The translations under genes and the position numbers were made by a program. The notes below the pieces were generated by a model. That model worked only from the letters and a program-made list of their open reading frames with translations, was not told the DNA's origin and did no database searches. Below are positions 2,030 to 64,000 of a stretch of 64,000 nt of DNA, piece by piece. The stretch is from Camelus dromedarius (taxonomy: Eukaryota), in the NCBI RefSeq assembly GCF_036321535.1, contig NC_087436.1, positions 496,001 to 560,000 on the forward strand, written 5' to 3'. The number at the start of each line of letters is the position of its first letter. Positions within the stretch are counted from its first letter, which is position 1.

Positions 2030-2031
<2 letters not shown>

Positions 2032-2299
2032 AGTTCTGAGTGCCCCCAAAGAAAAGTTTGAAAGTCTTCGGGACAGAGGTGACACGCAAACCTTTGGAAT
2101 TTTGAGCTCTGTGAAAGTATCACTTATTCAGAAATTAAGCATTATAGTTCTAGACCAACAGAATCAGGGTCCTCCGCAAGTTACTTACCAGAGATTTTTT
2201 AAAGAAACTATCTTCCCTAAAATCCAATGATAAATCAAATATCCATGGAAAGAATATAGATCAGTAATATCAAGCAACAATTTCTACACTAATGCTGAT

Positions 2300-2590: not shown

Positions 2591-2619
2591 TAAGCAGAAG
2601 AATGAGGATGAGAGAAAAC

Positions 2620-5255
2620 TGAATATGTGTGGAAGCCACCCTTCACCAACACTGCTGGAAAACAGAATTGTGGTGTTGGGGCACTGCCCGAACCGATATA
2701 TATAACAGCAGGAATAAGCTCTAACTAGGTATCTGAGCGAAAAATGCTTTTAGCTTTAAATCTACTCAAGTAAACATGCAGAGAAATCATGGTAAGTGCT
2801 TGAGATTTAGCCTTGCTGTTTAGGTGAGACAAAGGAATTCTTCTACACTTGTTCCATTTTGGAAACATATGTGAGTGGAAGCCAACTTTCACCTAGGTTT
2901 TTGAGAACCCAGTTTCTGGTCTCGGGGAATTACGGTACTTACTTATATAAGGTGAGGCACAAGCTCCAGTTGGCTTTTCCATTCCAAAGAGCTTTTACTT
3001 GAAACCAGCTTTCAGAATCATGCTGAGAAATCAGAGTTAGTGTTTCTATATGTCACTCCACCTTTTATGCTGTATGAAAGAACTCCACAACACATGCTCA
3101 ATTTTTAGATAATGTATGAGTTTGGAAGCTGTCCTTCAACTAGCTAATTGGGAACCCACAGTTTCTGGGGTAGGGAAACTACGCTACATACATATCTATG
3201 GGGATGCATTAGTACCAAAACGGTTTTTCACTGCAAACCATGTTTACTTGCAACCGGCTCTGAAAAAAACACTGAGAAATCAGAGTAAGTGTTTCTGTAT
3301 GTCACTTAACCGTCAATGCTGGACGAAAGAACGCCTCTCCACATGATAACTTCTGACATTTGAATGTGTGTTGGAGGTGTCCTTCACCTTACTTGTTGGA
3401 AGCCCAGAGTTTCTGGTCTAGGGGAACTAAGCTACTTACAAATGTAACCGGAGGCAGTCGCTCCAACGCGGTTTTCCTAAGCAAACCACTTTTACTTTGA
3501 AACCAGCGTTAGTAAACACGCTGAGAAATCAGAGAATGTGTTTCTACATGTCACTCTGCCTTTTATGATGGATGAAAGAACGCCACTCCAAATGCTCTAT
3601 TTTCAAATCTGTATATGTATGGAAGCCTTCTTTCACCTATTTGTTGGGAACCATAATTTCAGGACTAGGGGAACTACGCTGCTTTCTTATATTTGGGGAC
3701 GTCCTAGCACCAACCCTCATTTCCACTGCAAACTGCTTTACTTGAAACCGGCTTTGAGAAACATGCTGAGAAATCAGAGATAGTGTTTCAGTATGTCACT
3801 TAACCTTCAATGCAGGATGAAAGAACGCCTCTCCACATGCTCACTTATGACAGCTGGATGAGTGTTGGAGACGTCCTTCACTTAAAATGTTGGAAAACAA
3901 GATTTTCTGGTCTAGGGGTACTACGCTGCTTACATATCTAAGGGGAGGCACTCTCTCCAATGCAGTTTTCCACACAAACAGCTTTTACTTTTAAATCGGC
4001 GTTAGTAAACATGCTGAGAAATCAGAGAATGTGTTTCTGCATGTCACTCTGCCTTTTATGCTGGATGAAAGAACATCACTCCACATGCTCTATTTTCAGA
4101 TCTGTATAAGTGTGGAGGCCGTCCTTCACCAAGCTTGTTGGGAACACAGAATTTCTGGACTAGGGAAACTACGCAGCTTTCATATATATGGCAATGTACT
4201 AACACCAACTCGGTTTTCCTATGCAAACTGCTTTTACTTGAAACCGGCTTTGCGAAACATTCTGAGAAATCAGAGTAAATGTTTCTGTATGTCACTTTAC
4301 CTTCAATGCTGGATGAAAGAACGCATCTCCACATGCTCACGTCTGACAGCTGAATGTGTGTTGGAACTGTCCTTCACCTAACTTGCAGTAAACCCATTGT
4401 TTCTGGTCTAGGGGAACTACGCTACTAACATGTCTAAGGGGAGGCACTCGCTTCAACGTGGATTTCCACAGCTAACTACTTTTACTTTGAAATCGGCTTT
4501 AGTAAACATGCTGAGAAATCAGAGAATGTGTTTCTATATGTCACTCTGCCTTTTATGCTGGGTGAAATAAGGCCTCTACACATGCTCTATTTTCAAACCT
4601 GTATATGTATGGAAGCCGTCCTTCACCTAGCTCGTTGGGAACCAACAGTTTCTGGACTAGGGAAACAACGCTGCTTTCATATATATGCGAACGAACTAGC
4701 ACCAACTCTCATTTCCACTGCAAGACGTTTTTACTTGAAACGGATTTCAGAAACATGCTAAGAAATCAGAGTGAGTGTTTCAGTATGTCACTTAACCTTC
4801 AATGGTGGAAGAAGGAACGCCTCCCAACATGCTCACTTCTGACATCTAAATGTGAGTTGGAGCCATTCACATAACTTCTTCGAAAACAAGGGTTTCTGGT
4901 CTAGGGGAACTACGCTGCTTACATATCTAAGCAGAGGCTCTCGCTCCAAAGTGGTTTTCCACAGCAAACCACTCTTCCTTAGAAACTGGCATTAGGAAAC
5001 ATGCTGAGAATTCAGAGTAAGTATTTCTGTATGTCACTTAACCTTCAATGCTGGATGAAAGAACACCTTTCCACAAGATCACTTCTGACACTTGAATTTG
5101 TGTTGGAGACGTCCTTCTCCTAACCTGTTGGAAAACCAGAGCTTCTGGAAAACGGGAACTACCCAATTTACATATCAAAGCGGAGGAACTCGATTCAAAG
5201 CAGTTTACCAAAGCAAAGTGATTTTTCTTTCAAACCACCGTTTCACAGTAAACAT
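2620..5255 (-). repeat. Diverged satellite layer in inverted orientation, ~10-11 monomers of ~246-249 bp, mostly alternating A/B (~495-bp dimer)
   Basis: 4117-4150 gccgtccttcaccaagcttgttgggaacacaga is the reverse complement of the main-array tgtgttcccaacaagctaggtgaaggacggc. 'ctgagaaatcagag' recurs every ~247 bp. Paralogous ORFs start at 3538, 4031 and 4528. Confidence 0.93.
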
Positions 5256-6960
5256 AAAAGGCAGAGTGAGATGTACAAACACGTTCTCTGATTTCTCAGT
5301 ATATTTCTTAAACCCGGTTTCAAGTAAAAGCGGTTTGCAGTGAAAAACTGAGTTCGTGCTACTACGTCCCCATATATATGAAAGCAGCGAAGTTTACCTT
5401 GGACTGAAAATCTGGGTTTCCAACAAGCTAGGTGAAAGGTGGCTTCCACACTCCTATATTCCTGAAAATTGAGCATGTGGAGAGGCGTTCCTTCATCCAG
5501 CATAAAAGGCAGAGGGACTTCTAGACACACATTCTCTGATTTCTGACCGTGTTTCTTATGCCGGTTTCAATGTAAAAGCGGTTTGATCTGGAAAACGAAG
5601 TTGGAGCGAAAGCCCCCCCTTACAAATGTAAGTAGCGTAGTTACCCTATACAAGAAACTCTGGGGTTCCAACAAGTTAGGTGAAGGACGGCTCCAAGAGA
5701 AATTCAGATGTCAAAAGTGAGCTTGTGGAGAGGCTTCTTTCATCCAGCCTTGAAGGTTAAGTTACATACAGAAACAAGTACTCTGATTTCTCAGCATGTT
5801 TCTCAAAGCCGGTTTCAAGTAAAAGCCGATTGCAGTGAAAAATCGAGTTCATGCTAGTACATCCCCATATATTGGAAAGCAGAGTAGTTTACCCTGGACT
5901 GAAACACTGGTTTTCCAAAAACTTAGGTGAAGAACGGCTTTCACACTCGTACAGATCTGATAATTGAGCATGTTGAGAGGCGTTCCTTCATGCAGCATAA
6001 AAGGCAGAGGTATTCTAGACACAAATTCTCTGATTTGTAAGCATGTTTCCTAACGCCTTTTTCAATGTAAAAGCGATTTAGTGTGGAAAACCACGTTGGA
6101 GCGAGTGTCTCCCCTTAGATATGTAAGTAGCGTAGTTCCCCTGTACCAGAAACTATGGATTTCCAACAAGTTAGCTGAAGGACGGCTCCAACGCAAACTC
6201 AGATATCAGAATTGAGCTTGTGGAGAGACGTTCTTTCATCCAGCATTGAAGGTTAAGTGACATACAGAAATAATTACTCTGATTTCTCAGCATGTTTCTC
6301 AAAGCCGATTTCAAGTAAAGGCGATTTGCAGTTTAAAATTGAGTTAGTACTATTACGTCCCGATATATATGGAAGCAGCTTAGTTTGCCTTGGACTGAAA
6401 CTCTGGGTTTCCAACAAGCTAGGTGAATTAAAGCTTCCAAACTCATAGAGTTATGAAAATTGAGCATGTTGAGAGGAGTTCCTTCATGCAGAATAAAATG
6501 CAGAGGTATTACAGACACACATTCTCTAAAATTTCAGCATGTTTCCTAACGCCGTTTTCAATGTAAAAGCGATTTAGTGTGGAAAACCACGTTGGAGTGA
6601 GCGCCTGCCCTTAGATACGTAAGTAGCTTAGTTCCCCTACAACAGAACCTCTGGTTTTCAAACAAGTTAAGTGAAGGTCGTCTCCAAAACAAATTCAGAT
6701 GTCAGAAGTAAGCCTGTGGAGAGGAGTTTTTTCATCCAGCATTGAAGGTTAAGTGATATACAGAAACAGATTCTATGAGTTGTCAGCATGTTTCTCAAAG
6801 CTGGTTTCAAATAAAAGAAGTTTACAGTATAAAACCGAGTCCATGCTAGAAAGTTCCTATATATATGAAAGAAAAGTAATTTCCATTGGACTGAAACTCT
6901 GGGTTATCAACAAGGTAGATGAAGGATGGCTTCAACACTCATCCAGTTTTGAATATTGAG
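5253..6960 (+). repeat. Diverged dimeric satellite layer, same orientation as the main array, ~7 monomers
   Basis: A-type 'cataaaaggcagag' at ~5253, 5501, 5996 and 6492. B-type 'cattgaaggttaagtgac' at ~5748, 6244 and 6740. Dimer period is 495-496 bp. Confidence 0.93.
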
Positions 6961-7780
6961 AATGTGGAGAGATATTCATTTGTCTAGCATAAAGGGAATG
7001 GTGTGCAGGAGAAACACCTACACTGGATTCTGACTATGCTTCCTAGTGCTGGTTTGAAGTTCATGCAGTTTTCATTGTAAATACGAGTTGTAACTAGTAT
7101 CTCCACATTTATACAAATGTAGTGAATTATAACACTCATAAGAAACTGTGTGTTCCCAAGAAATTTAATTGAAGACTTTCACACACACTTAACACTCAGA
7201 ATTGTGCAAGTGGAGAGAAGTTCGTTCATATATAAAAAGGAAAAGGGTTGAAATAGAATCACATACCCTGGACTCACAGTATGATTCAGAGTGACACTTT
7301 GAAGGTCACGCAGTTTTCACTGTAAAATCGACTTGGAGCTAGTACTTTCCCATATATATGCATGTAGTGTACTTACCCACTGAAAAGAAACGGTTTTTCC
7401 AACAATTAAGCTTTCTGATGCCATGCACAAATATTTATCTGTCAGAATTGAGAATGAGAAGAGAAGTTCTATTATCCAGTATAAATGGAATGGACTGTAG
7501 TAGAAAAAATTACTCTGGTTTATCAGTATCTTATCCTAGATCCGGGCAAATATCATGAAGTTTTTCTGTAAAGCTGAGTTGGAGCTAGTAATCACCATAT
7601 ATATGTATGTAGTGCAGATTACAACAGAAAAAAAATGTGTTCAAAACAATTTAGAACATTGAAGACTTACCAAAAACTTAACACTCAATATTCGACATAT
7701 AGAGAGACATTTGTTCAACTAACAAAAGGGAGTGGGTTCAGTAGAAAGACTTATAATGGATTCTTATTCGGTTACCTAGT
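6960..7780 (+). repeat. Transition layer of ~3 heavily decayed main-type monomers
   Basis: Main-array motifs (ggtttgaagttc, ttggagctagta, ccatatatatg, tgtgttccc) recur at ~247-bp spacing with many substitutions, AT drift and CpG loss. Confidence 0.88.
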
Positions 7781-8929
7781 GCTGGTTTGAAGTTCTTGCA
7801 GTTTTCACTGTGAAACCGAGTTGGAGCTAGTAGATCCCCACATATATGTATGGAGTGGAGTTACAACTGAAAAGAAACTTTGTGTTCCCAACAAGCTAGG
7901 TGAAGGACGGCTTTCACACACACTTATCTCTCAGAACTGAGCAAGTGGAGAGACGTTCGTTCATCTAGCACCAAGGGAACGGGTTGCAGGAGACACTTTT
8001 TCTCTGCTTTCTCAGTCTGTTTCCTAGTGCCGGTTTGAAGTTCCTGCAGTTTTCACTGTCAAACCGAGTTGGAGCTAGTACCTCCCCATATATATGTATG
8101 GAGTGGAGTTTGCAACTGAAAAGAAACTTTGTGTTCCCAACAAGCTAGGTAAAGGACGGCTTTCACACACACTTATCTCTCAGAACTGAGCAAGAGGAGA
8201 GATGTTCGTTCATCTAGCACAAAGGAAACGGGTTGCAGGAGACACTTTTCTCTGCTTTCTCAGTCTGTTTCCTAGTGCCGGTTTGAAGTTCCTGCAGTTT
8301 TCACTGTAAAACCGAGTTGGAGCCAGTACCTCCCCATATATATGTATGGAATGGAGTTTGCAACTGAAAAGAAACTTTGTGTTCCCAACAAGCTAGGTGA
8401 AGGACGGCTTTCACACACACTTAGATCTCGGAATTGAGCAAGAGGAGAGATGTTCGTTCATCTAGCACAAAGGGAACGGGTTGCAGGAGACACTTTTTCT
8501 CTGCCTTCTCAGTCTGTTTCTTAGTGCCGGTTTGAAGTTCTTGCAGTTTTCACTGTAAAACAGAGTTGGAGCAAGTACCTCCCCATATATATGTATGGAA
8601 TGGAGTTTGCAACTGAAATGAAACTTTGTGTTCCCAACAAGCTAGGTGAAGGACGGCTTTCACACACACTTATCTCTCGGAACTGAGCAAGTGAAGAGAC
8701 GTTCGTTCATCTAGAACAAAGGGAACGGGTTGCAGGAGACACTTTTTCTCTGCTTTCTCAGTCTGTTTCCTAGTGCCGGTTTGAAGTTCCTGCAGTTTTC
8801 ACTGTCAAACCGAGTTGGAGCTAGTACCTCCCCATATATATGTATGGAATGGAGTTTGCAACTGAAAAGAAACTTTGTGTTCCCAACAAGCTAGGTGAAG
8901 GACGGCTTTCACACACACTTATCTCTCGG

Positions 8930-11900
8930 AACTGAGCAAGTGGAGAGACGTTCGTTCATCTAGCACCAAGTGAACGGGTTGCAGGAGACACTTTTTCTCT
9001 GATTTCTCAGTCTGTTTCCTAGTGCCGGTTTGAAGTTCCTGCAGTTTTCACTGTCAAACCGAATTGGAGCTAGTACCTCCCCATATATATGTATGGAATG
9101 GAGTTTGCAACTGAAAAGAAACTTTGTTTTCCCAACAAGCTAGGTGAAGGACGGCTTTCACACACACTTATCTCTCGGAACTGAGCAAGTGGAGAGACGT
9201 TCGTTCATCTAGCACCAATGGAACGGGTTGCAGGAGACACTTTTTCTCTGCTTTCTCAGTCTGTTTCCTAGTGCCGGTTGGAACTTCCTGCAGTTTTCAC
9301 TGTAAAACCGAGTTGGAGATTGTACCTCCCCATATATATGTATGGAATGGTGTTTGCAACTGAAAAGAATCTTTGTGTTCCCAACAAGCTAGGTGAAGGA
9401 CGGCTTTCACACACACTTATCACTCAGAACTGAGCAAGTGGAGAGACGTTCGTTCATCTAGCACCAAGGGAACGGGTTGCAGGAGACACTTTTTCTCTGA
9501 TTTCTCAGTCTGTTTCCTAGTGCCGGTTTGAAGTTCCTGCAGATTTCACTGTAAAACCGAGTTGGAGCTAGTACCTCCCCATTTATATGTATGGAGTGGA
9601 GTTAGCAACTGAAAAGAAACTATGTGTTCCCAACAAGATATATGAAGGAAGTCTTTCACACACACTTATCTCTCAGAACTGAACAAGTGGAGAGACATTC
9701 GTTCATCAAGCTCCAAGGGAACGGGTTGCAGGAGACACTTTTTCTCTGCTTTCTCAGTCTGATTCCTAGTGCCGGTTTGAAGTTCCTGCAGTTTTCACTG
9801 TAAAACCGAGTTGGAGCTAGTACCTCCCCATATATATGTATGGAATGGAGTTTGCAACTGAAAAGAAACTTTGTGTTCCCAACAAGCTAGGTGAAGGACG
9901 GCTTTCACACACACTTATTTCTCAGAACTGAGCGTGTACAGAGACGTTCGTTCATCTAGCACCAAGGGAACGGGTTGCAGGAGACACTTTACCCTGGATT
10001 CTCAGTGTGTTTCCTGGTGCCGGTTTGAAGTTCCTGCAGTTTTCACTGTCAAACCGAGTTGGAGCTAGTACCTCCCCATATATATGTATGGAATTGAGTT
10101 GGCAACTGAAAAGAAACTTTGTGTTCCCAACAAGCTAGGTGAAAGACGGCTTTCACACACACTTATCTCTCAGAACTGAGCAAGTGGAGAGATGTTCTTT
10201 CATGTAGCACCAAGGGAACGGGTTGCAGGAGACACTTTTTCTCTGCTTCCTCAGTCTGTTTCCTATTGCCGGTTTGAAGTTCCTGCAGTTTTCACTGTAA
10301 AATCGAGTTGGAGCTTGTACCTCCCCATATATATGTATGGAATGGAGTTTGCAACTGAAAAGAAACTTTGTGTTCCCAACAAGCTAGGTGAAGGACGGCT
10401 TTCACACACACTTATCTCTCAGAACTGAGCAAGTGGAGAGACGTTCGTTCATCTAGCACCAAGGGAACGGGTTGCAGGAGACACTTTTCCTCTGCTTTCT
10501 CAGTCTGTTTCCTAGTGCCGGTTTGAAGTTCCTGCAGTTTTCACTGTAAAACCGAGTTGGAGCTTCTACCTCCCCATATATATGTATGGAATGGAGTTTG
10601 CAACTGAAAAGAAACTTTGTGTTCCCAACAAGCTAGGTGAAGGACGGCTTTCACACGCACATATCTCTCAGAACTGAGCAAGTGGAGAGACGTTCGTTCA
10701 TCTAGCACCAAGGGAACGGGTTGCAGGAGACACTTTTTCTCTGCTTCCTCAGTCTGATTCCTAGTGCCGGTTTGAAGTTCCTGCAGTTTTCACTGTAAAA
10801 CCGAGTTGGAGCTTGTACCTCCCCATATATATGTATGGAATGGAGTTTGAAACTGAAATGAAACTTTGTGTTCCCAACAAGCTAGGTGAAGGACGGCTTT
10901 CACACACACTTATCTCTCAGAACTGAGTAAGTGGAGAGACGTTCGTTCATCTAGCACCAAGGGAACGGGTTGCAGGGGACACTTTTTCTCTGTTTTCTCA
11001 GTCTGTTTCCTAGTGCCGGTTTGAAGTTCCTGCAGTTTTCACTGTAAAACCGAGTTGGAGCTTCTACCTCCCCATATATATGTATGGAATGGAGTTTGCA
11101 ACTGAAAAGAAACTTTGTGTTCCCAACAAGCTAGGTGAAGGGCGGCTTTCACACACACTTATCTCTCGGAACTGAGCAAGTGGAGAGACGTTCGTTCATC
11201 TAGCACCAAGTGAACGGTTTGCAGGAGACACTTTTTCTCTGATTTCTCAGGCTGTTTCCTAGTGCCGGTTTGAAGTTCCTGCAGTTTTCACTCTCAAACC
11301 GAGTTGGAGCTAGTACCTCCCCATATATATGTATGGAATGGAGTTTGCAACTGAAAAGAAACTTTGTTTTCTCAACAAGCTAGGTGAAGGACGGCTTTCA
11401 CACACACTTATCTCTCGGAACTGAGCAAGTGGAGAGACGGTAGTTCATCTAGCACCAATGGAACGGGTTGCAGGAGACACTTTTTCTCTGCTTTCTCAGT
11501 CTGTTTCCTAGTGCCGGTTGGAAGTTCCTGCAGTTTTCACTGTAAAACCGAGTTGGAGATTGTACCTCCCCATATATATGTATGGAATGGTGTTTGCAAC
11601 TGAAAAGAAACTTTGTGTTCCCAACAAGCTAGGTGAAGGACGGCTTTCACACACACTTATCACTCAGAACTGAGCAAGTGGAGAGACGTTCGTTCATCTA
11701 GCACCAAGGGAACGGGTTGCAGGAGACACTTTTTCTCTGCTTTCTCAGTCTGTTTCCTAGTGCCGATTTGAAGTTCCTGCAGTTTTCACTGTAAAACCGA
11801 GTTGGAGCTAGTACCTCCCCATTTATATGTATGGAGTGGAGTTAGCAACTGAAAAGAAACTATGTGTTCCCAACAAGATATATGAAGGAAGTCTTTCACA

Positions 11901-14660
11901 CACACTTATCTCTCAGAACTGAACAAGTGGAGAGACATTCGTTCATCAAGCTCCAAGGGAACGGGTTGCAGGAGACACTTTTTCTCTGCTTTCTCAGTCT
12001 GATTCTTAGTGCCGGTTTGAAGTTCCTGCAGTTTTCACTGTCAAACCGAGTTGGAGCTAGTACCTCCCCATATATATGTATGGAATGGAGTTTGCAACTG
12101 AAAAGAAACTTTGTGTTCCCAACAAGCTAGGTGAAGGACGGCTTTCACACACACTTATCTCTCAGAACTGAGCGTGTACAGAGACGTTCGTTCATCTAGC
12201 ACCAAGGGAACGGGTTGCAGGAGACACTTTACTCTGGTTTCTCAGTGTGTTTCCTGGTGCCGGTTTGAAGTTCCTGCAGTTTTCACTGTCAAACCGAGTT
12301 GGAGCTAGTACCTCCCCATATATATGTATGGAATTGAGTTGGCAACTGAAAAGAAACTTTGTGTTCCCAACAAGCTAGGTGAAAGACGGCTTTCACACAC
12401 ACTTATCTCTCAGAACTGAGCAAGTGGAGAGACGTTCTTTCATGTAGCACCAAGGGAACGGGTTGCAGGAGACACTTTTTCTCTGCTTCCTCAGTCTGTT
12501 TCCTAGTGCCGGTTTGAAGTTCCTGCAGTTTTCACTGTAAAATCGAGTTGGAGCTTGTACCTCCCCATATATATGTATGGAATGGAGTTTGCAACTGAAA
12601 AGAAACTTTGTGTTCCCAACAAGCTAGGTGAAGGACGGCTTTCACACACACTTATCTCTCAGAACTGAGCAAGTGGAGAGATGTTCTTTCATGTAGCACC
12701 AAGGGAACGGGTTGCAGGAGACACTTTTTCTCTGCTTCCTCAGTCTGTTTCCTAGTGCCGGTTTGAAGTTCCTGCAGTTTTCACTGTAAAACCGAGTTGG
12801 AGATTGTACCTCCCCATATATATGTATGGAATGGTGTTTGCAACTGAAAAGAAACTTTGTGTTCCCAACAAGCTAGGTGAAGGACGGCTTTCACACACAC
12901 TTATCACTCAGAACTGAGCAAGTGGAGAGACGTTCGTTCATCTAGCACCAAGGGAACGGGTTGCAGGAGACACTTTTTCTATGCTTCCTCAGTCTGATTC
13001 CTAGTGCCGGTTTGAAGTTCCTGCAGTTTTCACTGTAAAACCGAGTTGGAGCTTGTACCTCCCCATATATATGTATGGAATTGAGTTGGCAACTGAAAAG
13101 AAACTTTGTGTTCCCAACAAGCTAGGTGAAAGACGGCTTTCACACACACTTATCTCTCAGAACTGAGCAAGTGGAGAGATGTTCTTTCATGTAGCACCAA
13201 GGGAACGGGTTGCAGGAGACACTTTTTCTCTGCTTCCTCAGTCTGTTTCCTATTGCCGGTTTGAAGTTCCTGCAGTTTTCACTGTAAAATCGAGTTGGAG
13301 CTTGTACCTCCCCATATATATGTATGGAATGGAGTTTGCAACTGAAAAGAAACTTTGTGTTCCCAACAAGCTAGGTGAAGGACGGCTTTCACACACACTT
13401 ATCTCTCAGAACTGAGCAAGTGGAGAGACGTTCGTTCATCTAGCACCAAGGGAACGGGTTGCAGGAGACACTTTTTCTCTGCTTTCTCAGTCTGTTTCCT
13501 AGTGCCGGTTTGAAGTTCCTGCAGTTTTCACTGTAAAACCGAGTTGGAGCTTCTACCTCCCCATATATATGTATGGAATGGAATTTGCAACTGAAAAGAA
13601 ACTTTGTGTTCCCAACAAGCTATGTGAAGGACGGCTTTCACACGCACATATCTCTCAGAACTGAGCAAGTGGAGAGACGTTCGTTCATCTAGCACCAAGG
13701 GAACGGGTTGCAGGAGACACTTTTTCTCTGCTTCCTCAGTCTGATTCCTAGTGCCGGTTTGAAGTTCCTGCAGTTTTCACTGTAAAACCGAGTTGGAGCT
13801 TGTACCTCCCCATATATATGTATGGAATGGAGTTTGAAACTGAAATGAAACTTTGTGTTCCCAACAAGCTAGGTGAAGGACGGCTTTCACACACACTTAT
13901 CTCTCAGAACTGAGTAAGTGGAGAGACGTTCGTTCATCTAGCACCAAGGGAACGGGTTGCAGGGGACACTTTTTCTCTGTTTTCTCAGTCTGTTTCCTAG
14001 TGCCGGTTTGAAGTTCCTGCAGTTTTCACTGTAAAACCGAGTTGGAGCTTCTACCTCCCCATATATATGTATGGAATGGAGTTTGCAACTGAAAAGAAAC
14101 TTTGTGTTCCCAACAAGCTAGGTGAAGGGCGGCTTTCACACACACTTATCTCTCGGAACTGAGCAAGTGGAGAGACGTTCGTTCATCTAGCACCAAGTGA
14201 ACGGTTTGCAGGAGACACTTTTTCTCTGATTTCTCAGGCTGTTTCCTAGTGCCGGTTTGAAGTTCCTGCAGTTTTCACTCTCAAACCGAGTTGGAGCTAG
14301 TACCTCCCCATATATATGTATGGAATGGAGTTTGCAACTGAAAAGAAACTTTGTTTTCTCAACAAGCTAGGTGAAGGTCGGCTTTCACACACACTTATCT
14401 CTCGGAACTGAGCAAGTGGAGAGACGTTAGTTCATCTAGCACCAATGGAACGGGTTGCAGGAGACACTTTTTCTCTGCTTTCTCAGTCTGTTTCCTAGTG
14501 CCGGTTGGAAGTTCCTGCAGTTTTCACTGTAAAACCGAGTTGGAGATTGTACCTCCCCATATATATGTATGGAATGGTGTTTGCAACTGAAAAGAAACTT
14601 TGTGTTCCCAACAAGCTAGGTGAAGGACGGCTTTCACACACACTTATCTCTCAGAACTGA
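8930..14660 (+). repeat. Higher-order block 1: 9-mer (2240 bp) and 12-mer (2987 bp) duplications
   Basis: 'tatgaaggaagtc' at 9641 and 11881, and 'agcgtgtaca' at 9931 and 12171, are offset by 2240. Identical ORFs at 10192 and 13179, and 'tgagtaag' at 10924 and 13911, are offset by 2987. Confidence 0.88.
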
Positions 14661-26600: not shown

Positions 26601-26950
26601 TCAGAACTGAGCAAGTGGGGAGACGTTCGTTCATCTAGCACCAAGGGAACGGGTTGCAGGAGACACTTTTTCTCTGTTTTCTCAGTCTGTTTCCTAGTGC
26701 CGGTTTGAAGTTCCTGCAGTTTTCACTGTGAATTCGAGTTGGAGCTTCTACCTCCCCATATATATGTATGGAATGGAGTTTGCAACTGAAAAATAACTTT
26801 GTGTTCCCTACAAGCAAGGTGAAGGACGGCTTTCACACACACTTATCTTTCAGAACTGAGCAAGTGGAGAGACGTTCGTTCATCTAGCACCAAGGGAACG
26901 GGTTGCAGGAGACACTTTTTCTCTGCTTCCTCAGTCTGTTTCCTAGTGCC
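14660..26950 (+). repeat. Higher-order block 2: tandem duplication with a 26-mer offset (6473 bp), containing a nested 6-mer (1494 bp) duplication
   Basis: ORF pairs 14685/21158, 16925/23398, 17516/23989, 18170/24643, 18917/25390 and 20162/26635 are all offset by 6473. Pairs 17516/19010, 17672/19166, 17940/19434 and 18170/19664 are offset by 1494. Confidence 0.93.
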
Positions 26951-42300: not shown

Positions 42301-42780
42301 GTTCATCTAGCACCAAGGGAACGGGTTGCAGGAGTCACTTTTCTCTGCTTTCTCAGTCTGTTTCCTAGTGCCGTTTTGAAGTTCCTGCAGTTTTCACTGT
42401 CAAACCGAGTTGGAGCTAGTACCTCCCCATATATACGTATGGAATGGAGTTTGCAACTGAAAAGAAACTGTGTTCCCAACAAGCTAGGTGAAGGACGGCT
42501 TTCACACGCACATATCTCTCAGAACTGAGCAAGTGGAGAGACGTTCGTTCATCTAGCACCAAGGGAACGTGTTGCAGGAGACACTTTTTCTCTGCTTCCT
42601 CAGTCTGTTTCCTAGTGCCGGTTTGATGTTCCTGCAGTTTTCACTGTCAAACCGAGTTGGAGCTAGTACCTCCCATATATATGTATGGAATGGAGTTTGC
42701 AACTGAAAAGAAACTTTGTGTTCCCAACAAGCTAGGTGAAGGACGGCTTTCACACACACTTATCTCTCAGAACTGAGCAA
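30350..42780 (+). repeat. Higher-order block 3: variable-length repeat with a 12-mer core and 15- and 14-mer variants
   Basis: ORFs at 31117, 34102, 37831 and 41312 are offset by 2985, 3729 and 3481. The marker 'cacgtatc...aagtgtagag...catccagc' occurs at ~30577, 33561, 37290 and 40771. Confidence 0.88.
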
Positions 42781-50740: not shown

Positions 50741-51099
50741 GTGGAGAGACGTTCGTTCATCTAGCACCAAGGGAACGGGTTGCAGGAGACACTTTTTCTC
50801 TGCTTTCTCAGTCTGTTTCCTAGTGCCGGTTTGAAGTTCCTGCAGTTTTCACTGTCAAACCGAGTTGGAGCTAGTACCTCCCCATATATATGTATGGAAT
50901 GGAGTTTGCAACTGAAAAGAAACTTTGTGTTCCCAACAAGCTAGGTGAAGGACGGCTTTCACACACACTTATCTCTCAGAACAGAGCAAGTGGAGAGACG
51001 TTCGTTCATCTAGCACCAAGGGAACGGGTTGCAGGAGTCACTTTTTCTCTGCTTTCTCAGTCTGTTTCCTAGTGCCGGTTTGAAGTTCCTGCAGTTTTC

Positions 51100-54000: not shown

Positions 54001-57000
54001 GCACCAAGGGAACGGGTTGCAGGAGACACTTTTTCTCTGCTTCCTCAGTCTGTTTCCTAGTGCCGGTTTGAAGTTCCTGCAGTTTTCACTGTAAAACCGA
54101 GTTGGAGCTTGTACCTACCCATATATATGTATGGAATGGAGTTTGCAACTGAAAAGAAACTCTGTGTTCCCAACAAGCTAGGTGAAGGACGGCTTTCACA
54201 CACACTTATCTCTCAGAACTGAGCAAGTGGAGAGACGTTCGTTCATCTAGCACCAAGGGAACGGGTTGCAGGAGACACTTTTTCTCTGTTTTCTCAGTCT
54301 GTTTCCTAGTGCCGGTTTGAAGTTCCTGCAGTTTTCACTGTGAATTCGAGTTGGAGCTTCTACCTCCCCATATATATGTATGGAATGGAGTTTGCAACTG
54401 AAAAGTAACTTTGTGTTCCCTACAAGCAAGGTGAAGGACGGCTTTCACACACACTTATCTTTCAGAACTGAGCAAGTGGAGAGACGTTCGTTCATCTAGC
54501 ACCAAGGGAACGGGTTGCAGGAGACACTTTTTCTCTGCTTTCTCAGTCTGTTTCCTAGTGCCGGTTTTAAGTTCCTGCAGTTTTCACTGTAAAACCGTGT
54601 TGGAGTTTCTACCGCCCCATATATATGTATGGAATGGAGTTTGCAACTGAAAAGAAACTTTGTGTTCCCAACAAGCAAGGTGAAGGACGGCTTTCACACA
54701 CACTTATCTCTCAGAACTGAGCAAGTGGAGAGACGTTCGTTCATCTAGCACCAAGGGAACGGGTTGGAGGAGACACTTTTTCTCTGCTTCCTCAGTCTGT
54801 TTCCTAGTGCCGGTTTGAAGTTCCTGCAGTTTTCACTGTAAAACAGAGTTGGAGCTAGTAATTCCCCATATATATGTATGGAATGGAGTTTGCAACTGAA
54901 AAGAAACTTTGTGTTCCCAACAAGCTAGGTGAAGGACGGCTTTCACACACACTTATCTCTCAGAACTGAGCAAGTGGAGAGACGTTCGTTCATCTAGCAC
55001 CAAGGGAACGGGTTGCAGGAGACACTTTTTCTCTGCTTTCTCAGTCTCTTTCCTAGTGCCGGTTTGAAGTTCCTGCAGTTTTCACTGTCAAACCGTGTTG
55101 GAGCTAGTAATTCCCCATATATATGTATGGAATGGAGTTTGCAACTGAAAAGAAACTTTGTGTTCCCAACAAGCTAGGTGAAGGACGGCTTTCACACACA
55201 CTTATCTCTCAGAACTGAGCAAGTGGAGAGACGTTCGTTCATGTAGCACCAAGGGAACGGGTTGCAGGAGACACTTTTTCTCTGCTTTCTCAGTCTGTTT
55301 CCTAGTGCCGGTTTGAAGTTCCTGCAGTTTTCACTGTGAATTCGAGTTGGAGCTTCTACCTCCCCATATATATGTATGGAATGGAGTTGGCAACAGAAAA
55401 GAAACTTTGTGTTCCCTACAAGCAAGGTGAAGGACGGCTTTCACACACACATATATCTCAGAACTGAGCAAGTGGAGAGACGTTCGTTCATCTAGCACCA
55501 AGGGAACGGGTTGCAGGAGACACTTTTTCTCTGCTTTCTCAGTCTGTTTCCTAGTGCCGGTTTGAAGTTCCTGCAGTTTTCACTGTAAAACCGTGTTGGA
55601 GTTTCTACCGCCCCATATATATGTATGGAATGGAGTTTGCAACTGAAAAGTAACTTTGTGTTCCCTACAAGCAAGGTGAAGGACGGCTTTCACACACACT
55701 TATCTTTCAGAACTGAGCAAGTGGAGAGACGTTCGTTCATCTAGCACCAAGGGAACGGGTTGCAGGAGACACTTTTTCTCTGCTTTCTCAGTCTGTTTCC
55801 TAGTGCCGGTTTAAAGTTCCTGCAGTTTTCACTGTAAAACCGTGTTGGAGTTTCTACCGCCCCATATATATGTATGGAATGGAGTTTGCAACTGAAAAGA
55901 AACTTTGTGTTCCCAACAAGCTAGTTGAAGGACGGTTTTCACACACACTTATCTCTCAGAACTGAGCAAGTGGAGAGACGTTCGTTCATCTAGCACCAAG
56001 GGAACGGGTTGCAGGAGACACTTTTTCTCTGCTTTCTCAGTCTGTTTCCTAGTGCCGGTTTAAAGTTCCTGCAGTTTTCACTGTAAAACAGAGTTGGAGC
56101 TAGTAATTCCCCATATATATGTATGGAATGGAGTTTGCAACTGAAAAGAAACTTTGTGTTCCCAACAAGCTAGTTGAAGGACAGCTTTCACACACACTTA
56201 TCTCTCAGAACTGAGCAAGTGGAGAGACGTTCGTTCATGTAGCACAAAGGGAACGGGTTGCAGGAGACACTTTTTCTCTGCTTTCTCAGTCTGTTTCCTA
56301 GTGCCGGTTTGAAGTTCCTGCAGTTTTCACTGTGAATTCGAGTTGGAGCTTCTACCTCCCCATATATATGTATGGAATGGAGTTGGCAACTGAAAAGAAA
56401 CTTTGTGTTCCCTACAAGCAAGGTGAAGGACGGCTTTCACACACACTTATCTTTCAGAACTGAGCAAGTGGAGAGACGTTCGTTCATCTAGCACCAAGGG
56501 AACGGGTTGCAGGAGACACTTTTTCTCTGTTTTCTCAGTCTGTTTCCTAGTGCCGGTTTGAAGTTCCTGCAGTTTTCACTGTGAATTCGAGTTGGAGCTT
56601 CTACCTCCCCATATATATGTATGGAATGGAGTTTGCAACTGAAAAGAAACTTTGTGTTCCCAACAAGCAAGGTGAAGGACGGCTTTCACACACACTTATC
56701 TCTCAGAACTGAGCAAGTGGAGAGACGTTCGTTCATCTAGCACCAAGTGAACGGGTTGCAGGAGACACTTTTTCTCTGCTTTCTCAGTCTGTTTCCTAGT
56801 GCCGGTTTTAAGTTCCTGCAGTTTTCACTGTAAAACCGTGTTGGAGTTTCTACCGCCCCATATATATGTATGGAATGGAGTTTGCAACTGAAAAGAAACT
56901 TTGTGTTCCCAACAAGCAAGGTGAAGGACGGTTTTCACACACACTTATCTCTCAGAACTGAGCAAGTGGAGAGACGTTCGTTCATCTAGCACCAAGGGAA

Positions 57001-60000
57001 CGGGTTGGAGGAGACACTATTTCTCTGCTTTCTCAGTCTTTTTCCTAGTGCCGGTTTGAAGTTCCTGCAGTTTTCACTGTAAAACAGAGTTGGAGCTAGT
57101 AATTCCCCATATATATGTATGGAATGGAGTTTGCAACTGAAAAGAAACTTTGTGTTCCCAACAAGCTAGTTGAAGGACGGCTTTCACACACACTTATCTC
57201 TCAGAACTGAGCAAGTGGAGAGACGTTCGTTTATGTAGCACCAAGGGAACGGGTTGCAGGAGACACTTTTTCTCTGCTTTCTCAGTCTGTTTCCTAGTGC
57301 CGGTTTGAAGTTCCTGCAGTTTTCAATGTCAAACCGTGTTGGAGCTAGTACCTCCCCATATATATGTATGGAATGGAGTTGGCAACAGAAAAGAAACTTT
57401 GTGTTCCAAACAAGCTAGTTGAAGGACGGCTTTCACACACACATATATCTCAGAACTGAGCAAGTGGAGAGACGTTCGTTCATCTAGCACCAAGGGAACG
57501 GGTTGCAGGAGACACTTTTTCTCTGCTTCCTCAGTCTGTTTCCTAGTGCCGGTTTGAAGTTCCTGCAGTTTTCACTGTAAAACCGAGTTGGAGCTTGTAC
57601 CTCCCCATATATATGTATGGAATGGAGTTTGCAACTGAAAAGAAACTTTGTGTTCCCAACAAGCTAGGTGAAGGACGGCTTTCACACACACGTATCTCTC
57701 AGAACTGAGCAAGTGTAGAGACGTTCGTTCATCCAGCACCAAGGGAACGGGTTGCAGGAGACACTTTTTCTCTGCTTTCTCAGTCTGTTTCCTAGTGCCG
57801 GTTTGAAGTTCCTGCAGTTATCACTGTAAAACAGAGTTGGAGCTTGTACCTCCCCATATATACGTATGGAATGGAGTTTGCAACTGAAAAGAAACTTTGT
57901 GTTCCCAAAAAGCTAGGTGAAGGACGGCTTTCACACACACTTATCTCTCCGAACTGAGCAAGTGGAGAGACGTTCGTTCATCTAGCACCAAGGGAACGGG
58001 TTGCAGGAGACACTTTTTCTCTGTTTTCTCAGTCTGTTTCCTAGTGCCGGTTTGAAGTTCCTGCAGTTTTCACTGTGAAATCGAGTTGGAGCTTCTACCT
58101 CCCCATATATATGTATGGAATGGAGTTTGCAACTGAAAAGAAACTTTGTGTTCCCAACAAGCTAGGTGAAGGACGGCTTTCACACACACTTATCTCTCCG
58201 AACTGAGCAAGTGGAGAGACGTTCGTTCATCTAGCACCAAGTGAACGGGTTGCAGGAGACACTTTTTCTCTGCTTTCTCAGTCTGTTTCCTAGTGCCGGT
58301 TTGAAGTTCCTGCAGTTTTCACTGTCAAACCGAGTTGGAGCTAGTACCTCCCCATATATATGTATGGAATGGAGTTTGCAACTGAAAAGAAACTTTGTGT
58401 TCCCAACAAGCTAGGTGAAGGACGGCTTTCACACACACTTATCTCTCAGAACAGAGCAAGTGGAGAGACGTTCGTTCATCTAGCACCAAGGGAACGGGTT
58501 GCAGGAGTCACTTTTTCTCTGCTTTCTCAGTCTGTTTCCTAGTGCCGGTTTGAAGTTCCTGCAGTTTTCACTGTCAATCCGAGTTGGAGCTAGTACCTCC
58601 CCGTATATATGTATGGAATGGAGTTTGCAACTGAAAAGAAACTTTGTGTTCCCAACAAGCTAGGTGAAGGACGGCTTTCACACACATTTATCTCTCAGAA
58701 CTGAGCAAGTGGAGAGACGTTCGTTCATCTAGCACCAAGGGAACGGGTTGCAGGAGACACTTTTTCTCTGCTTTCTCAGTCTGTTTCCTAGTGCCGGTTT
58801 GAAGTTCCTGCAGTTTTCACTGTCAAACCGAGTTGGAGCTAGTACCTCCCCATATATATGTATGGATTGGAGTTGGCAACTGAAAAGAAACTTTCTGTTC
58901 CAAACAAGCTAGTTGAAGGACGGCTTTCACACACACATATCTTTCAGAACTGAGCAAGTGGAGAGACGTTCGTTCATCTAGCACCAAGGGAACGGGTTGC
59001 AGGAGACACTTTTTCTCTGCTTTCTCAGTCTGTTTCCTAGTGCCGGTTTGAAGTTCCTGCAGTTTTCACTGTAAAACCGAGTTGGAGCTAGTACCTCCCC
59101 ATATATATGTATGGATTGGAGTTGGCAACTGAAAAGAAACTTTGTGTTCCAAACAAGCTAGTTGAAGGACGGCTTTCACACACACATATCTCTCAGAACT
59201 GAGCAAGTGGAGAGACGTTCGTTCATCTAGCACCAAGGGAACGGGTTGCAGGAGACACTTTTTCTCTGCTTCCTCAGTCTGTTTCCTAGTGCCGGTTTGA
59301 AGTTCCTGCAGTTTTCACTGTAAAACCGAGTTGGAGCTTGTACCTACCCATATATATGTATGGAATGGAGTTTGCAACTGAAAAGAAACTCTGTGTTCCC
59401 AACAAGCTAGGTGAAGGACGGCTTTCACACACACTTATCTCTCAGAACTGATCAAGTGGAGAGACGTTCGTTCATCTAGCACCAAGGGAACGGGTTGCAG
59501 GAGACACTTTTTCTCTGTTTTCTCAGTCTGTTTCCTAGTGCCGGTTTGAAGTTCCTGCAGTTTTCACTGTGAATTCGAGTTGGAGCTTCTACCTCCCCAT
59601 ATATATGTATGGAATGGAGTTTGCAACTGAAAAGTAACTTTGTGTTCCCTACAAGCAAGGTGAAGGACGGCTTTCACACACACTAATCTTTCAGAACTGA
59701 GCAAGTGGAGAGACGTTCGTTCATCTAGCACCAAGTGAACGGGTTGCAGGAGACACTTTTTCTCTGCTTTCTCAGTCTGTTTCCTAGTGCCGGTTTTAAG
59801 TTCCTGCAGTTTTCACTGTAAAACCGTGTTGGAGTTTCTACCGCCCCATATATATGTATGGAATGGAGTTTGCAACTGAAAAGAAACTTTGTGTTCCCAA
59901 CAAGCAAGATGAAGGACGGTTTTCACACACACTTATCTCTCAGAACTGAGCAAGTGGAGAGACGTTCGTTCATCTAGCACCAAGGGAACGGGTTGGAGGA

Positions 60001-63000
60001 GACACTTTTTCTCTGCTTTCTCAGTCTTTTTCCTAGTGCCGGTTTGAAGTTCCTGCAGTTTTCACTGTAAAACAGAGTTGGAGCTAGTAATTCCCCATAT
60101 ATATGTATGGAATGGAGTTTGCAACTGAAAAGAAACTTTGTGTTCCCAACAAGCTAGTTGAAGGACGGCTTTCACACACACTTATCTCTCAGAACTGAGC
60201 AAGTGGAGAGACGTTCGTTCATGTAGCACAAAGGGAACGGGTTGCAGGAGACACTTTTTCTCTGCTTTCTCAGTCTGTTTCCTAGTGCCGGTTTGAAGTT
60301 CCTGCAGTTTTCACTGTCAAACCGTGTTGGAGCTAGTACCTCCCCATATATATGTATGGAATGGAGTTGGCAACAGAAAAGAAACTTTGTGTTCCAAACA
60401 AGCTAGTTGAAGGACGGCTTTCACACACACATATATCTCAGAACTGAGCAAGTGGAGAGACGTTCGTTCATCTAGCACCAAGGGAACGGGTTGCAGGAGA
60501 CACTTTTTCTCTGTTTTCTCAGTCTGTTTCCTAGTGCCGGTTTGAAGTTCCTGCAGTTTTCACTGTGAATTCGAGTTGGAGCTTCTACCTCCCCATATAT
60601 ATGTATGGAATGGAGTTTGCAACTGAAAAGTAACTTTGTGTTCCCTACAAGCAAGGTGAAGGACGGCTTTCACACACACTTATCTTTCAGAACTGAGCAA
60701 GTGGAGAGACGTTCGTTCATCTAGCACCAAGTGAACGGGTTGCAGGAGACACTTTTTCTCTGCTTTCTCAGTCTGTTTCCTAGTGCCGGTTTTAAGTTCC
60801 TGCAGTTTTCACTGTAAAACCGTGTTGGAGTTTCTACCGCCCCATATATATGTATGGAATGGAGTTTGCAACTGAAAAGAAACTTTGTGTTCCCAACAAG
60901 CAAGGTGAAGGACGGTTTTCACACACACATATCTCTCAGAACTGAGCAAGTGGAGAGACGTTCGTTCATCTAGCACCAAGGGAACGGGTTGGAGGAGACA
61001 CTTTTTCTCTGCTTTCTCAGTCTTTTTCCTAGTGCCGGTTTGAAGTTCCTGCAGTTTTCACTGTAAAACAGAGTTGGAGCTAGTAATTCCCCATATATAT
61101 GTATGGAATGGAGTTTGCAACTGAAAAGAAACTTTGTGTTCCCAACAAGCTAGTTGAAGGACGGCTTTCACACACACTTATCTCTCAGAACTGAGCAAGT
61201 GGAGAGACGTTCGTTCATGTAGCACAAAGGGAACGGGTTGCAGGAGACACTTTTTCTCTGCTTTCTCAGTCTGTTTCCTAGTGCCGGTTTGAAGTTCCTG
61301 CAGTTTTCACTGTCAAACCGTGTTGGAGCTAGTACCTCCCCATATATATGTATGGAATGGAGTTGGCAACAGAAAAGAAACTTTGTGTTCCAAACAAGCT
61401 AGTTGAAGGACGGCTTTCACACACACATATATCTCAGAACTGAGCAAGTGGAGAGACGTTCGTTCATCTAGCACCAAGGGAACGGGTTGCAGGAGACACT
61501 TTTTCTCTGCTTCCTCAGTCTGTTTCCTAGTGCCGGTTTGAAGTTCCTGCAGTTTTCACTGTAAAACCGAGTTGGAGCTTGTACCTCCCCATATATATGT
61601 ATGGAATGGAGTTTGCAACTGAAAAGAAACTTTGTGTTCCCAACAAGCTAGGTGAAGGACGGCTTTCACACACACGTATCTCTCAGAACTGAGCAAGTGT
61701 AGAGACGTTCGTTCATCCAGCACCAAGGGAACGGGTTGCAGGAGACACTTTTTCTCTGCTTTCTCAGTCTGTTTCCTAGTGCCGGTTTGAAGTTCCTGCA
61801 GTTATCACTGTAAAACAGAGTTGGAGCTTGTACCTCCCCATATATACGTATGGAATGGAGTTTGCAACTGAAAAGAAACTTTGTGTTCCCAAAAAGCTAG
61901 GTGAAGGACGGCTTTCACACACACTTATCTCTCAGAACTGAGCAAGTGGAGAGACGTTCGTTCATCTAGCACCAAGGGAACGGGTTGCAGGAGACACTTT
62001 TTCTCTGTTTTCTCAGTCTGTTTCCTAGTGCCGGTTTGAAGTTCCTGCAGTTTTCACTGTGAAATCGAGTTGGAGCTTGTACCTCCCCATATATATGTAT
62101 GGAATGGAGTTTGCAACTGAAAAGAAACTTTGTGTTCCCAACAAGCTAGGTGAAGGACGGCTTTCACACACACTTATCTCTCCGAACTGAGCAAGTGGAG
62201 AGACGTTCGTTCATCTAGCACCAAGTGAACGGGTTGCAGGAGACACTTTTTCTCTGCTTTCTCAGTCTGTTTCCTAGTGCCGGTTTGATGTTCCTGCAGT
62301 TTTCACTGTCAAACCGAGTTGGAGCTAGTACCTCCCATATATATGTATGGAATGGAGTTTGCAACTGAAAAGAAACTTTGTGTTCCCAACAAGCTAGGTG
62401 AAGGACGGCTTTCACACACACTTATCTCTCAGAACTGAGCAAGTGGAGAGACGTTCGTTCATGTAGCACCAAGGGAACGGGTTGCAGGAGACACTTTTTC
62501 TCTGCTTTCTCAGTCTGTTTCCTAGTGCCGATTTGAAGTTCCTGCAGTTTTCACTGTAAAACCGAGTTGGAGCTAGTACCTCCCCATATATATGTATGGA
62601 ATGGAGTTTGCAACTGAAAAGAAACTTTGTGTTCCCAACAAGCTAGGTGAAGGACGGCTTTCACACACACTTATTTCCCAGAACTGAGCAAGTGGAGAGA
62701 CGTTCGTTCATCTAGCACCAAGGAAACGGGTTGCAGGAGACACTTTTTCTCTGCTTTCTCTGTCTGTTTCCTAGTGCCGGTATGAAGTTCCTGCAGTTTT
62801 CACTGTAAAACCGAGTTGGAGCTTGTACCTCCCCATATATATGTATGGAATGGAGTTTGCAACTGAAAGGAAACTTTGTGTTCCCAACAAGATAGGTGAA
62901 GGACGGCTTTCACACACACTTATCTCTCAGAACTGAGCAAGTGGAGAGACGTTCGTTCATCTAGCACCAAGGGAACGGGTTGCAGGGGACACTTTTTCTC

Positions 63001-64000
63001 TGCTTTCTCAGTCTGTTTCCTAGTGCCGGTTTGAAGTTCCTGCAGTTTTCACTGTCAAACCGAGTTGGAGCTTCTACCACCCCATATATATGTAAGGAAT
63101 GGAGATTGCAACTGAAAAGAAACTTTGTGTTCCCAACAAGATAGGTGAAGGACGGCTTTCACACACACTTATCTCTCAGAAATGAGCAAGTGGAGAGACG
63201 TTCGTTCATCTAGCACCAAGGGAACGGGTTGCAGGAGACACTTTTTCTCTGCTTTCTCAGTCTGTTTCCTAGTGCCGGTTTGAAGTTCCTGCAGTTTTCA
63301 CTGTCAAACCGAGTTGGAGCTAGTACCTCCCCATATATATGTATGGAATGGAGTTTGCAACTGAAAAGAAACTTTGTGTTCCCAACAAGCTAGGTGAAGG
63401 ACGGCTTTCACACACACTTATCTCTCAGAACAGAGCAAGTGGAGAGACGTTCGTTCATCTAGCACCAAGGGAACGGGTTGCAGGAGTCACTTTTTCTCTG
63501 CTTTCTCAGTCTGTTTCCTAGTGCCGTTTTGAAGTTCCTGCAGTTTTCACTGTCAAACCGAGTTGGAGCTAGTACCTCCCCATATATATGTATGGAATGG
63601 AGTTTGCAACTGAAAAGAAACTGTGTTCCCAACAAGCTAGGTGAAGGACGGCTTTCACACGCACATATCTCTCAGAACTGAGCAAGTGGAGAGACGTTCG
63701 TTCATCTAGCACCAAGGGAACGGGTTGCAGGAGACACTTTTTCTCTGCTTCCTCAGTCTGTTTCCTAGTGCCGGTTTGAAGTTCCTGCAGTTTTCACTGT
63801 CAAACCGAGTTGGAGCTTCTACCTCCCCATATATATGTATGGAATGGAGTTTGCAACTGAAAAGAAACTTTGTGTTCCCAACAAGCTAGGTGAAGGACGG
63901 CTTTCACACGCACTTATCTCTCAGAACTGAGCAAGTGGAGAGACGTTCGTTCATCTAGCACCAAGGGACCGGTTTGCAGGAGACACTTTTTCTCTGCTTC
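51100..64000 (+). repeat. Higher-order block 5: recurrence and expansion of the 27.6-33 kb monomer series (EcoRI-bearing subfamily)
   Basis: Variants tgtgaattcgag, gtttctaccgcccc, ctagtaattcccc and gggttggagg are shared with 28.9-30 kb. ORF offsets are 30600 (28876/59476, 29125/59725) and 31098 (31117/62215, 32241/63339, 32380/63478). Confidence 0.88.

What the first reader, a model, noticed from the sequence alone, without database searches (positions are those of the whole stretch)
2620..64000. Layered edge of a candidate centromere built from a 249-bp satellite I do not recognise
Seen in the sequence: unique DNA, then diverged dimeric satellite, then decayed monomers, then more than 56 kb of homogeneous, insertion-free array with local higher-order repeats. 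Established: primate alpha-satellite centromeres show this layered expansion, with old layers pushed outward. Inference: this is a (peri)centromeric array boundary. The 249-bp unit matches no family I can confidently name, so it may be undescribed.
Basis: partly seen in the sequence, partly recalled or inferred. Interest (0 to 1): 0.75.

Follow-up and report, generated by a model that had tools for sequence, protein, structure and literature searches.

The report
Camelid centromere satellite, layered array edge
This is the edge of a large block of the main camel-family satellite DNA, a repeat already listed for the llama as its likely centromere sequence; its older, partly inverted fringe and the DNA next to it appear to exist in many copies rather than once.

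Summary
The array is real: 226 head-to-tail monomers of 247-249 bp from 7792, averaging 97.1% to their consensus, with no insertions. It is preceded by about 21 old monomers.

The repeat is not undescribed. It is about 92% identical (by-eye alignment) to the 248-bp Lama glama candidate centromere repeat in Melters et al. 2013, which makes up 2.9% of the llama genome.

- The old dimeric layer is split by a head-to-head inversion at 5253-5255.
- The 'unique' flank looks multi-copy. Single contigs from three independent DNA runs have word depths of hundreds to over a thousand across flank, old layer and junction; no single-copy control was laid.
- The 'HORs' are local duplications of about two copies, not an amplified higher-order unit.

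The monomer has no CENP-B box. A centromeric role is likely but untested (no CENP-A data).

Most novel open reading: one shared boundary cassette (flank plus inverted fossil dimer) sits beside many camelid centromeres. Verdict: known kind of structure, catalogued repeat, poorly studied lineage.

The parts
1..2619 (.). Non-satellite flank; apparently multi-copy, not unique; no gene found
   Evidence: No satellite hit. Single contigs of depth 1248-1640 (X2) and 820-990 (X8), many variant sites. 0 of 9 frames tested reach a Pfam cut-off.
1974..2029 (+). (AC)28 microsatellite in the flank
2620..5255 (-). Old A/B dimeric satellite block, inverted relative to the main array: 10 full monomers (2755-5228), a partial at 2620-2754 and a stub to 5255; one B-B phase break at 4735-5228; the two outermost monomers are more decayed
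   Evidence: Minus-strand blastn and nhmmer hits, 63-72% to the young consensus; classes from the identity matrix and tree
5253..5255 (.). Head-to-head inversion junction with a 3-base overlap; the arms are not mirror copies
   Evidence: Left-type alignment ends at 5254-5255 and right-type begins at 5253 in 3 of 3 comparisons with left-block stretches. Bridged by X15 record 14 (5175-5436); X2 record 24 (depth 812) runs about 15 bases past it.
5253..6810 (+). Old A/B dimeric block in the array's orientation: one partial and 6 monomers
   Evidence: within-arm identity 82-85%
6811..7058 (+). A-like monomer, intermediate between the dimer class and the young lineage
   Evidence: 67-72% to class A, about 69% to young; branches between them in the tree
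7059..7791 (+). Three strongly decayed monomers of the young lineage
   Evidence: 70% to young, 62% to each other; tree branches 0.25-0.32
7792..64000 (+). Homogeneous 249-bp satellite array, 226 monomers, runs off the window; homologue of the llama 248-bp candidate centromere repeat
   Evidence: llama entry
10030..14759 (+). Local duplication at lag 12 monomers (10030-11772 against 13017-14759)
   Evidence: 1.3 differences per monomer
14760..26958 (+). Local 26-mer duplication, about 1.9 copies
31689..41883 (+). Related blocks at lags 14, 15 and 29 (up to three partial copies)
42876..50835 (+). Very recent 16-mer tandem duplication, two copies
   Evidence: 0.19 differences per monomer

Best explanation
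This is the outer edge of an array of the major camelid 248/249-bp satellite, most likely the array that carries this chromosome's centromere. Shown: the young array grows and is homogenised by repeated local duplications of 4-29 monomers, which give two-copy blocks rather than a fixed higher-order unit. Shown: outside it lie remnants of older variants of the same family, namely three decayed monomers and an A/B dimer array broken once by an inversion. Inferred: these are relic arrays displaced when the present variant expanded, as in primate alpha-satellite layers. Inferred: the flank, old layers and junction were later copied as a block, so many centromere edges (or one many-copy pericentromeric duplication) share them. 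Inferred: with no CENP-B box, the centromere would be kept epigenetically by CENP-A somewhere inside the array, probably beyond this window.
For: Family. The llama entry is 248 nt, 45% GC, 2.9% of the genome, about 2.55 Mb per chromosome, HOR 'not found'. The young array is 45% GC. A 39-base window word occurs once in the three supplement files, in the llama entry. By-eye alignment of the two consensuses gives 20 substitutions and one gap, 228 of 249. [quoted passage not shown] Dynamics. 145 of 225 monomers lie in duplicated runs of 6 or more; order shuffles give none. Private variants fall from 0.72 per monomer at the edge to 0.04-0.3 inside; nearest-neighbour distance falls inward (rho -0.28, monomers not independent). 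Layers. Young, decayed and dimer monomers form separate clades (support 99 for the young clade; 99 for young plus the three decayed monomers). Multi-copy. 2182-3390 short contigs were laid on 7.8 kb in three DNA runs, with single-contig depths of 10^2 to 10^3 across flank and dimer layer; a contig of depth 419 spans the flank/satellite boundary at 2620. Position (unchecked earlier notes). Pseudogene duplication units lie 370 kb before the window, and the noted ordinary genes 12-70 Mb after it.
Against: No CENP-A, methylation or FISH data are available for this repeat; Melters' label rests on abundance alone. Decay is not ordered outward: the inner monomers are more decayed than the outer dimers. 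The inward rise in homogeneity is not monotonic, since divergence returns to 8.4 differences per monomer at 51-57 kb. Contig depth is not a copy number, and no single-copy control was laid. The llama comparison was not computed. The species is not established.
Confidence: 0.72

Rival explanations
1. The array is pericentromeric or short-arm heterochromatin of the same family, and CENP-A sits on a different variant or a different repeat, like major versus minor satellite in mouse (recalled analogy).
For: Camelids have large, variable C-band blocks (PMC9547437 passages) and several satellite families above and below the centromere (PMC13751797). Bins of the old layer with summed depth 1-2.7e5 point to other very abundant variants of the family elsewhere. 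There is no CENP-B box.
Against: [quoted passage not shown] The array is homogeneous, free of insertions and holds very recent duplications, as expected of an actively maintained array.
Confidence: 0.2
2. The many copies of the flank and old layer come from one local pericentromeric amplicon on this or a few chromosomes, not from a boundary shared among many centromeres. This sub-question is compatible with the best explanation.
For: Depth cannot place the copies. Camelid genomes hold local pseudogene-rich amplified blocks. The three decayed monomers next to the young array show lower single-contig depth (263 against 540-1030 in X8), so not every copy need abut a young array.
Against: The 64-kb window holds no second copy of the flank. 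Alpaca Y paint lights most autosomal centromeres and short arms, and 5.3-kb families occur above the centromere on 16-20 pairs, so cross-chromosome sharing is common in this family.
Confidence: 0.4
3. The inversion and the sharp edge are assembly artefacts.
For: Satellite edges are hard to assemble. No listed contig spans the whole stretch, and the 7771-7792 step lay at the end of the laid region.
Against: An independent run's contig bridges the junction with 78 and 181 bases on either side and no gap. An X2 contig passes it by about 15 bases, and an X8 contig reaches equally far. All 30 bins are covered in three DNA runs. The arms are 77-81% alike, not the mirror copies a fold-back artefact would give.
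Confidence: 0.04

Closest known systems
Lama glama 248-bp candidate centromere repeat (Melters et al. 2013, PMC4053949, supplement file 1 and Table S1 row 140)
   Same: Collinear over the whole monomer, about 92% identical by eye; same GC (45%); an exact shared 39-base word; no amplified HOR in either.
   Different: One base longer. The llama consensus lacks the PstI site that 220 of 226 monomers here carry. The 8% gap exceeds the 2.9% spread within this array, so this is another species or another subfamily. Melters give only a consensus: the word llama does not occur in their main text, and there is no name, mapping, layers or CENP-A test.
Layered primate alpha-satellite pericentromeres (Shepelev et al. 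2009, PMC2729386, passages)
   Same: A homogeneous core flanked by discrete older clades, including monomeric-dimeric-monomeric succession; dead layers more diverged than a normal mutation rate explains.
   Different: No homology claimed. No CENP-B boxes, no multi-copy HOR, and no transposon insertions in the old layers here. The old zone is only 5 kb, and decay is not ordered outward. Symmetry on the far side cannot be seen.
Cichlid centromere 'centroids' (PMC13652916, abstract only)
   Same: Satellite blocks in opposite orientation with a non-satellite element shared among chromosomes (sharing is only inferred here).
   Different: Centroids are an inverted pair of about 15-kb elements inside the array, framing the methylation dip. 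Here the inversion is a 3-base junction in a dead 5-kb fringe with no element at the junction.
Alpaca VpaSat01-20 and SAC-SAT (PMC13751797)
   Same: Same animal family; some map near centromeres on many chromosomes.
   Different: VpaSat units are 1.8-8.5 kb, and the study set centromeric satellites aside. 0 of 4 primers tried match the window within 3 mismatches. SAC-SAT is described as NOR-associated; its sequence was not seen.

Membership tests
Camelid 248/249-bp satellite (llama repeat of Melters 2013) | Full-length sequence homology to the llama consensus | tested here: met
   228 of 249 positions by eye between the consensus and the entry; exact 39-mer found by tool
Camelid 248/249-bp satellite (llama repeat of Melters 2013) | Monomer about 248 bp, GC about 45%, long tandem array | tested here: met
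   247-249 bp, GC 0.44-0.46, more than 56 kb
Functional centromeric satellite | CENP-A enrichment or methylation dip in the array | not testable with these tools
   No such data served; search returned no camelid CENP-A study
Functional centromeric satellite | Located at the primary constriction | tested here: inconclusive
   No genome held. Unchecked notes put duplication blocks before the window and genes 12-70 Mb after it.
Functional centromeric satellite | Most abundant tandem repeat of the genome | tested here: inconclusive
   True for the llama homologue; not measured for this genome
CENP-B-box satellite | Nine-base CENP-B core consensus | tested here: not met
   0 exact matches; best 6 of 9 in the consensus; none at 8 of 9 in 64 kb on either strand
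Canonical higher-order repeat array (human type) | A multimer of strongly diverged monomers repeated many times | tested here: not met
   Monomers differ by 4.9%; no period from 2 to 30 exceeds about 2 tandem copies. The old A/B dimer does meet the dimer definition (77-86% within class against 70% between).
Alpha-satellite-type layered expansion | Discrete flanking layers that form separate clades | tested here: met
Alpha-satellite-type layered expansion | Intra-layer divergence rises outward | tested here: not met
   Inner monomers 62% to each other, outer dimers 77-86%; only three inner monomers
Alpha-satellite-type layered expansion | Layers symmetric on both arms and shared among chromosomes | tested here: inconclusive
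   Far side not in the window; multi-copy signal but no locations

The most novel reading that the evidence does not exclude
Many camelid chromosomes share one centromere-edge cassette: at least 2.6 kb of non-satellite DNA, a head-to-head inverted fossil dimer array and decayed monomers. It was spread and kept about 97-99% alike by exchange between non-homologous chromosomes, and the 249-bp array abuts it on each. The fixed inversion would mark a single ancestral centromere edge copied across an unusually stable 2n=74 karyotype.
Probability: 0.4. Interest if true: 0.58.

Novelty: new member of a known kind. Interest (0 to 1): 0.33.

Why it matters
Camelid centromeric DNA is barely characterised: the 2026 alpaca satellite survey says no comprehensive study existed, and it set centromeric repeats aside. 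This window ties the catalogued llama repeat to an assembled array edge and shows alpha-satellite-like relic layers outside primates, which Shepelev et al. proposed as a phylogenetic record. It also gives specific probes: the PstI monomer, A/B dimer variants and the junction. If the edge is shared among chromosomes, it shows exchange between non-homologous centromere edges in a lineage with a frozen karyotype. It would also warn that variants called in such 'unique-looking' flanks are paralogous.

Tried and rejected
- Whole genome: not held, so copy positions and the far side of the array could not be examined.
- Rfam on 1-10000: one chance hit, E 0.67.
- Pfam on 9 of the 30 stop-to-stop frames in 1-2700: three hits at E 0.018-0.077, all far below cut-off.
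- Fold-back origin of the inversion: rejected, because cross-arm identity (A 77%, B 81%) is not above within-arm identity (A 82-86%, B 80-85%).
- Origin of the monomer from a shorter unit of about 83 bp: not supported (autocorrelation p 0.13, direct self-alignment p 0.06).
- CENP-B box: absent.
- Four alpaca VpaSat primers (one each for 06, 07, 09, 12, of 26 listed): no match; a weak negative.
- Pattern scans of microbial and viral collections for the junction and a monomer word: 0 matches, uninformative.
- Earlier-finding look-ups by sequence, by 'near' and by two word sets: nothing.
- RNA runs: six hold 0.07-0.32 of the words. X15 covers flank and satellite alike, so it may be host DNA and is not evidence of transcription.
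- Uncovered bins in X15 are not interpreted.
- Dating the layers from divergence: rejected, since branch lengths of 0.25-0.32 would imply implausible ages if mutation is elevated in satellites.
- The VicPac4 paper is not held. One search returned an unrelated paper and was not used.
Full report
OBSERVATION. TRF reports a 249-bp array at 7771-63999 (226 copies, 95% matches) and weaker 249/497-bp arrays at 2911-5190 and 5284-6971. Cutting against a consensus built from 191 monomers gives 225 full monomers and one end piece from 7792. Lengths are 247-249 and mean identity is 97.1%. There are 170 distinct sequences among the 225, with 4.9% mean pairwise difference. No inserted bases occur. PstI cuts 220 of 226 monomers and none in 2620-7791. 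A profile search finds the first satellite trace at 2620-2747 (E 8e-8) and none further left. The step from 70% to 97% happens within one monomer.

Monomers in 2620-5255 lie on the minus strand and those from 5253 on the plus strand. Alignments place the switch at 5253-5255 with a three-base overlap, head to head. Both arms are A/B dimers (70% between classes). They are not mirror images: class A is 86% within the left arm, 82% within the right and 77% across; class B is 80, 85 and 81%. The right-arm monomers of each class group together in the tree. So this is an old rearrangement between two parts of a dimer array, not a fold-back.

Between the dimers and the young array lie one A-like intermediate (6811-7058) and three monomers (7059-7791). 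These three are closer to the young lineage (70%, against 63-67% for the dimers) but only 62% alike among themselves, with branches of 0.25-0.32. Lineage order fits layered expansion; degree of decay does not. Only three monomers carry this point.

HIGHER-ORDER STRUCTURE. Near-identical runs are real: the longest is 16 monomers, and 145 of 225 monomers lie in runs of six or more, against a longest run of 3 in 100 order shuffles. But the lags vary (4, 7, 9, 12, 14, 15, 16, 26, 29) and no period from 2 to 30 exceeds about two tandem copies. These are local duplications, the youngest at 42876-50835 (0.19 differences per monomer). Private variants are commonest near the edge (0.72 per monomer, against 0.04-0.3 further in), though 51-57 kb is again more diverged.

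IDENTITY. Earlier notes on this genome called it camelid (unchecked), which I tested against the literature. The supplement of Melters et al. 2013 lists a Lama glama repeat: 248 nt, 45% GC, 2.9% of the genome, about 2.55 Mb per chromosome, HOR not found. A 39-base window word occurs once in those files, in that entry. By eye, the two consensuses differ by 20 substitutions and one gap (228 of 249, about 92%); this figure was not computed. The llama consensus lacks the PstI site. The family is therefore catalogued, and the host is a camelid. The species is not established: 8% from the llama consensus could mean another species or another subfamily. Melters chose candidates by abundance alone, a rule that held for most species with known centromeres.

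THE FLANK LOOKS MULTI-COPY. Fourteen of 24 listed runs, all of one coded organism, hold 0.62-0.67 of the words of 1-10000. I laid 4 of the 24 on 1-7800: three DNA-type runs of different studies and one RNA run.
- The DNA runs gave 2182-3390 short contigs.
- Listed single contigs have word depth 1248-1640 in the flank and 812-1362 in the left dimer arm (X2). In X8 they are 820-990 in the flank, 530-1030 in the left arm and 263 in the decayed monomers. In X10 they are 126-302.
- At many sites all covering contigs differ from the window (40 rows shown, 74 hidden).
- A contig of depth 419 spans the flank/satellite boundary.
- The inversion junction is bridged by X15 record 14 (depth 4), and passed by about 15 bases by a contig of depth 812 in X2.

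The tool warns that depth is not a copy number, and I laid no single-copy control, so I give no number. Depths near a thousand with dense variant breaks in three runs are hard to reconcile with one locus. Where the copies lie is unknown. Context from papers: alpaca Y paint hybridises to most autosomal centromeres and many short arms (PMC7830431), and four 5.3-kb families map above the centromere on 16-20 pairs (PMC13751797).

HOW IT MOST LIKELY WORKS. Shown: a homogeneous array renewed by local multi-monomer duplication, flanked by older clades of the same family. Inferred: it is the centromere-bearing array (about 0.72), the fringe is a relic of earlier arrays, and the edge was duplicated as a block. 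There is no CENP-B box, so CENP-B-independent maintenance is expected.

The young monomer has an imperfect inverted repeat at positions 94-190 (3 of 200 shuffles as good; DNA fold z -2.2). It folds at z below -1.1 in 11 of 12 young monomers but in 3 of 20 old ones; the segment was chosen after the fact. Kasinathan and Henikoff (PMC5889037, passages) link short dyads to centromeres without CENP-B boxes, but theirs are under 10 bp, so this is only a loose lead.

Transitions are not favoured: Ts/Tv is 0.52 for distinct alleles in the young array (about 1.5 expected if the true ratio were 2) and 0.57 in the dimers. This would fit error-prone repair, as Shepelev et al. proposed for hypermutable alpha-satellite layers, but it is unexplained here.

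LITERATURE SEEN. PMC4053949: passages and two supplement entries. PMC13751797: abstract, parts 1-4 of 8 and the spreadsheet with cells cut at 400 characters; the slide supplement was unreadable. PMC2729386, PMC5889037, PMC7830431, PMC9547437 and PMC13477059: passages only. PMC13652916: abstract only. Not seen: the VicPac4/SAC-SAT paper and Vidal-Rioja 1987 and 1994, known only from citing sentences; either may already describe this repeat. Ten searches found no paper that names, maps or CENP-A-tests this satellite or describes its layers. The library lacks most subscription journals, and Dfam, Repbase and nt could not be searched.

VERDICT. A real feature of a known kind, built from a catalogued but little-studied repeat. 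The novelty claimed for the unit falls. The inverted fossil dimer and the apparently many-copy edge are the parts worth following. Interest 0.33.

Noticed in passing
window 1-7791: Flank, old layers and inversion junction all show high single-contig depth in three DNA runs, so the edge looks like a many-copy duplication.
   Followed up: partly
window 3901-4160, 4421-4680, 5981-6240, 7021-7540: Summed depth in X2 and X8 jumps to 5e4-2.7e5 in these bins. Short stretches of old monomers match very abundant contigs, which suggests other high-copy variants of the family elsewhere in the genome.
   Followed up: no
window 7792-64000 and 2620-6810: No transition bias: Ts/Tv 0.52-0.57, with C>A and T>A the commonest classes in the young array.
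   Followed up: partly
monomer positions 94-190, e.g. window 7885-7981: Imperfect inverted repeat, stronger in young than in old monomers.
   Followed up: partly
window 7059-7791: The three monomers next to the young array are the most decayed and the most AT-rich (GC 0.37 in 7001-8000).
   Followed up: partly
window 7792-64000: Linked variants at monomer positions 21, 38 and 39 suggest two interspersed subtypes; variants at 107 and 110 are confined to blocks (about 14.7-28 kb and after 52 kb for position 107).
   Followed up: no
window 5226 (loose end in run X15): A second, diverged version of the sequence just left of the junction occurs in the same run, consistent with paralogous junction copies.
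   Followed up: no
window 2620-64000: CpG observed/expected is 0.48 in both old and young satellite against 0.24 in the flank.
   Followed up: no
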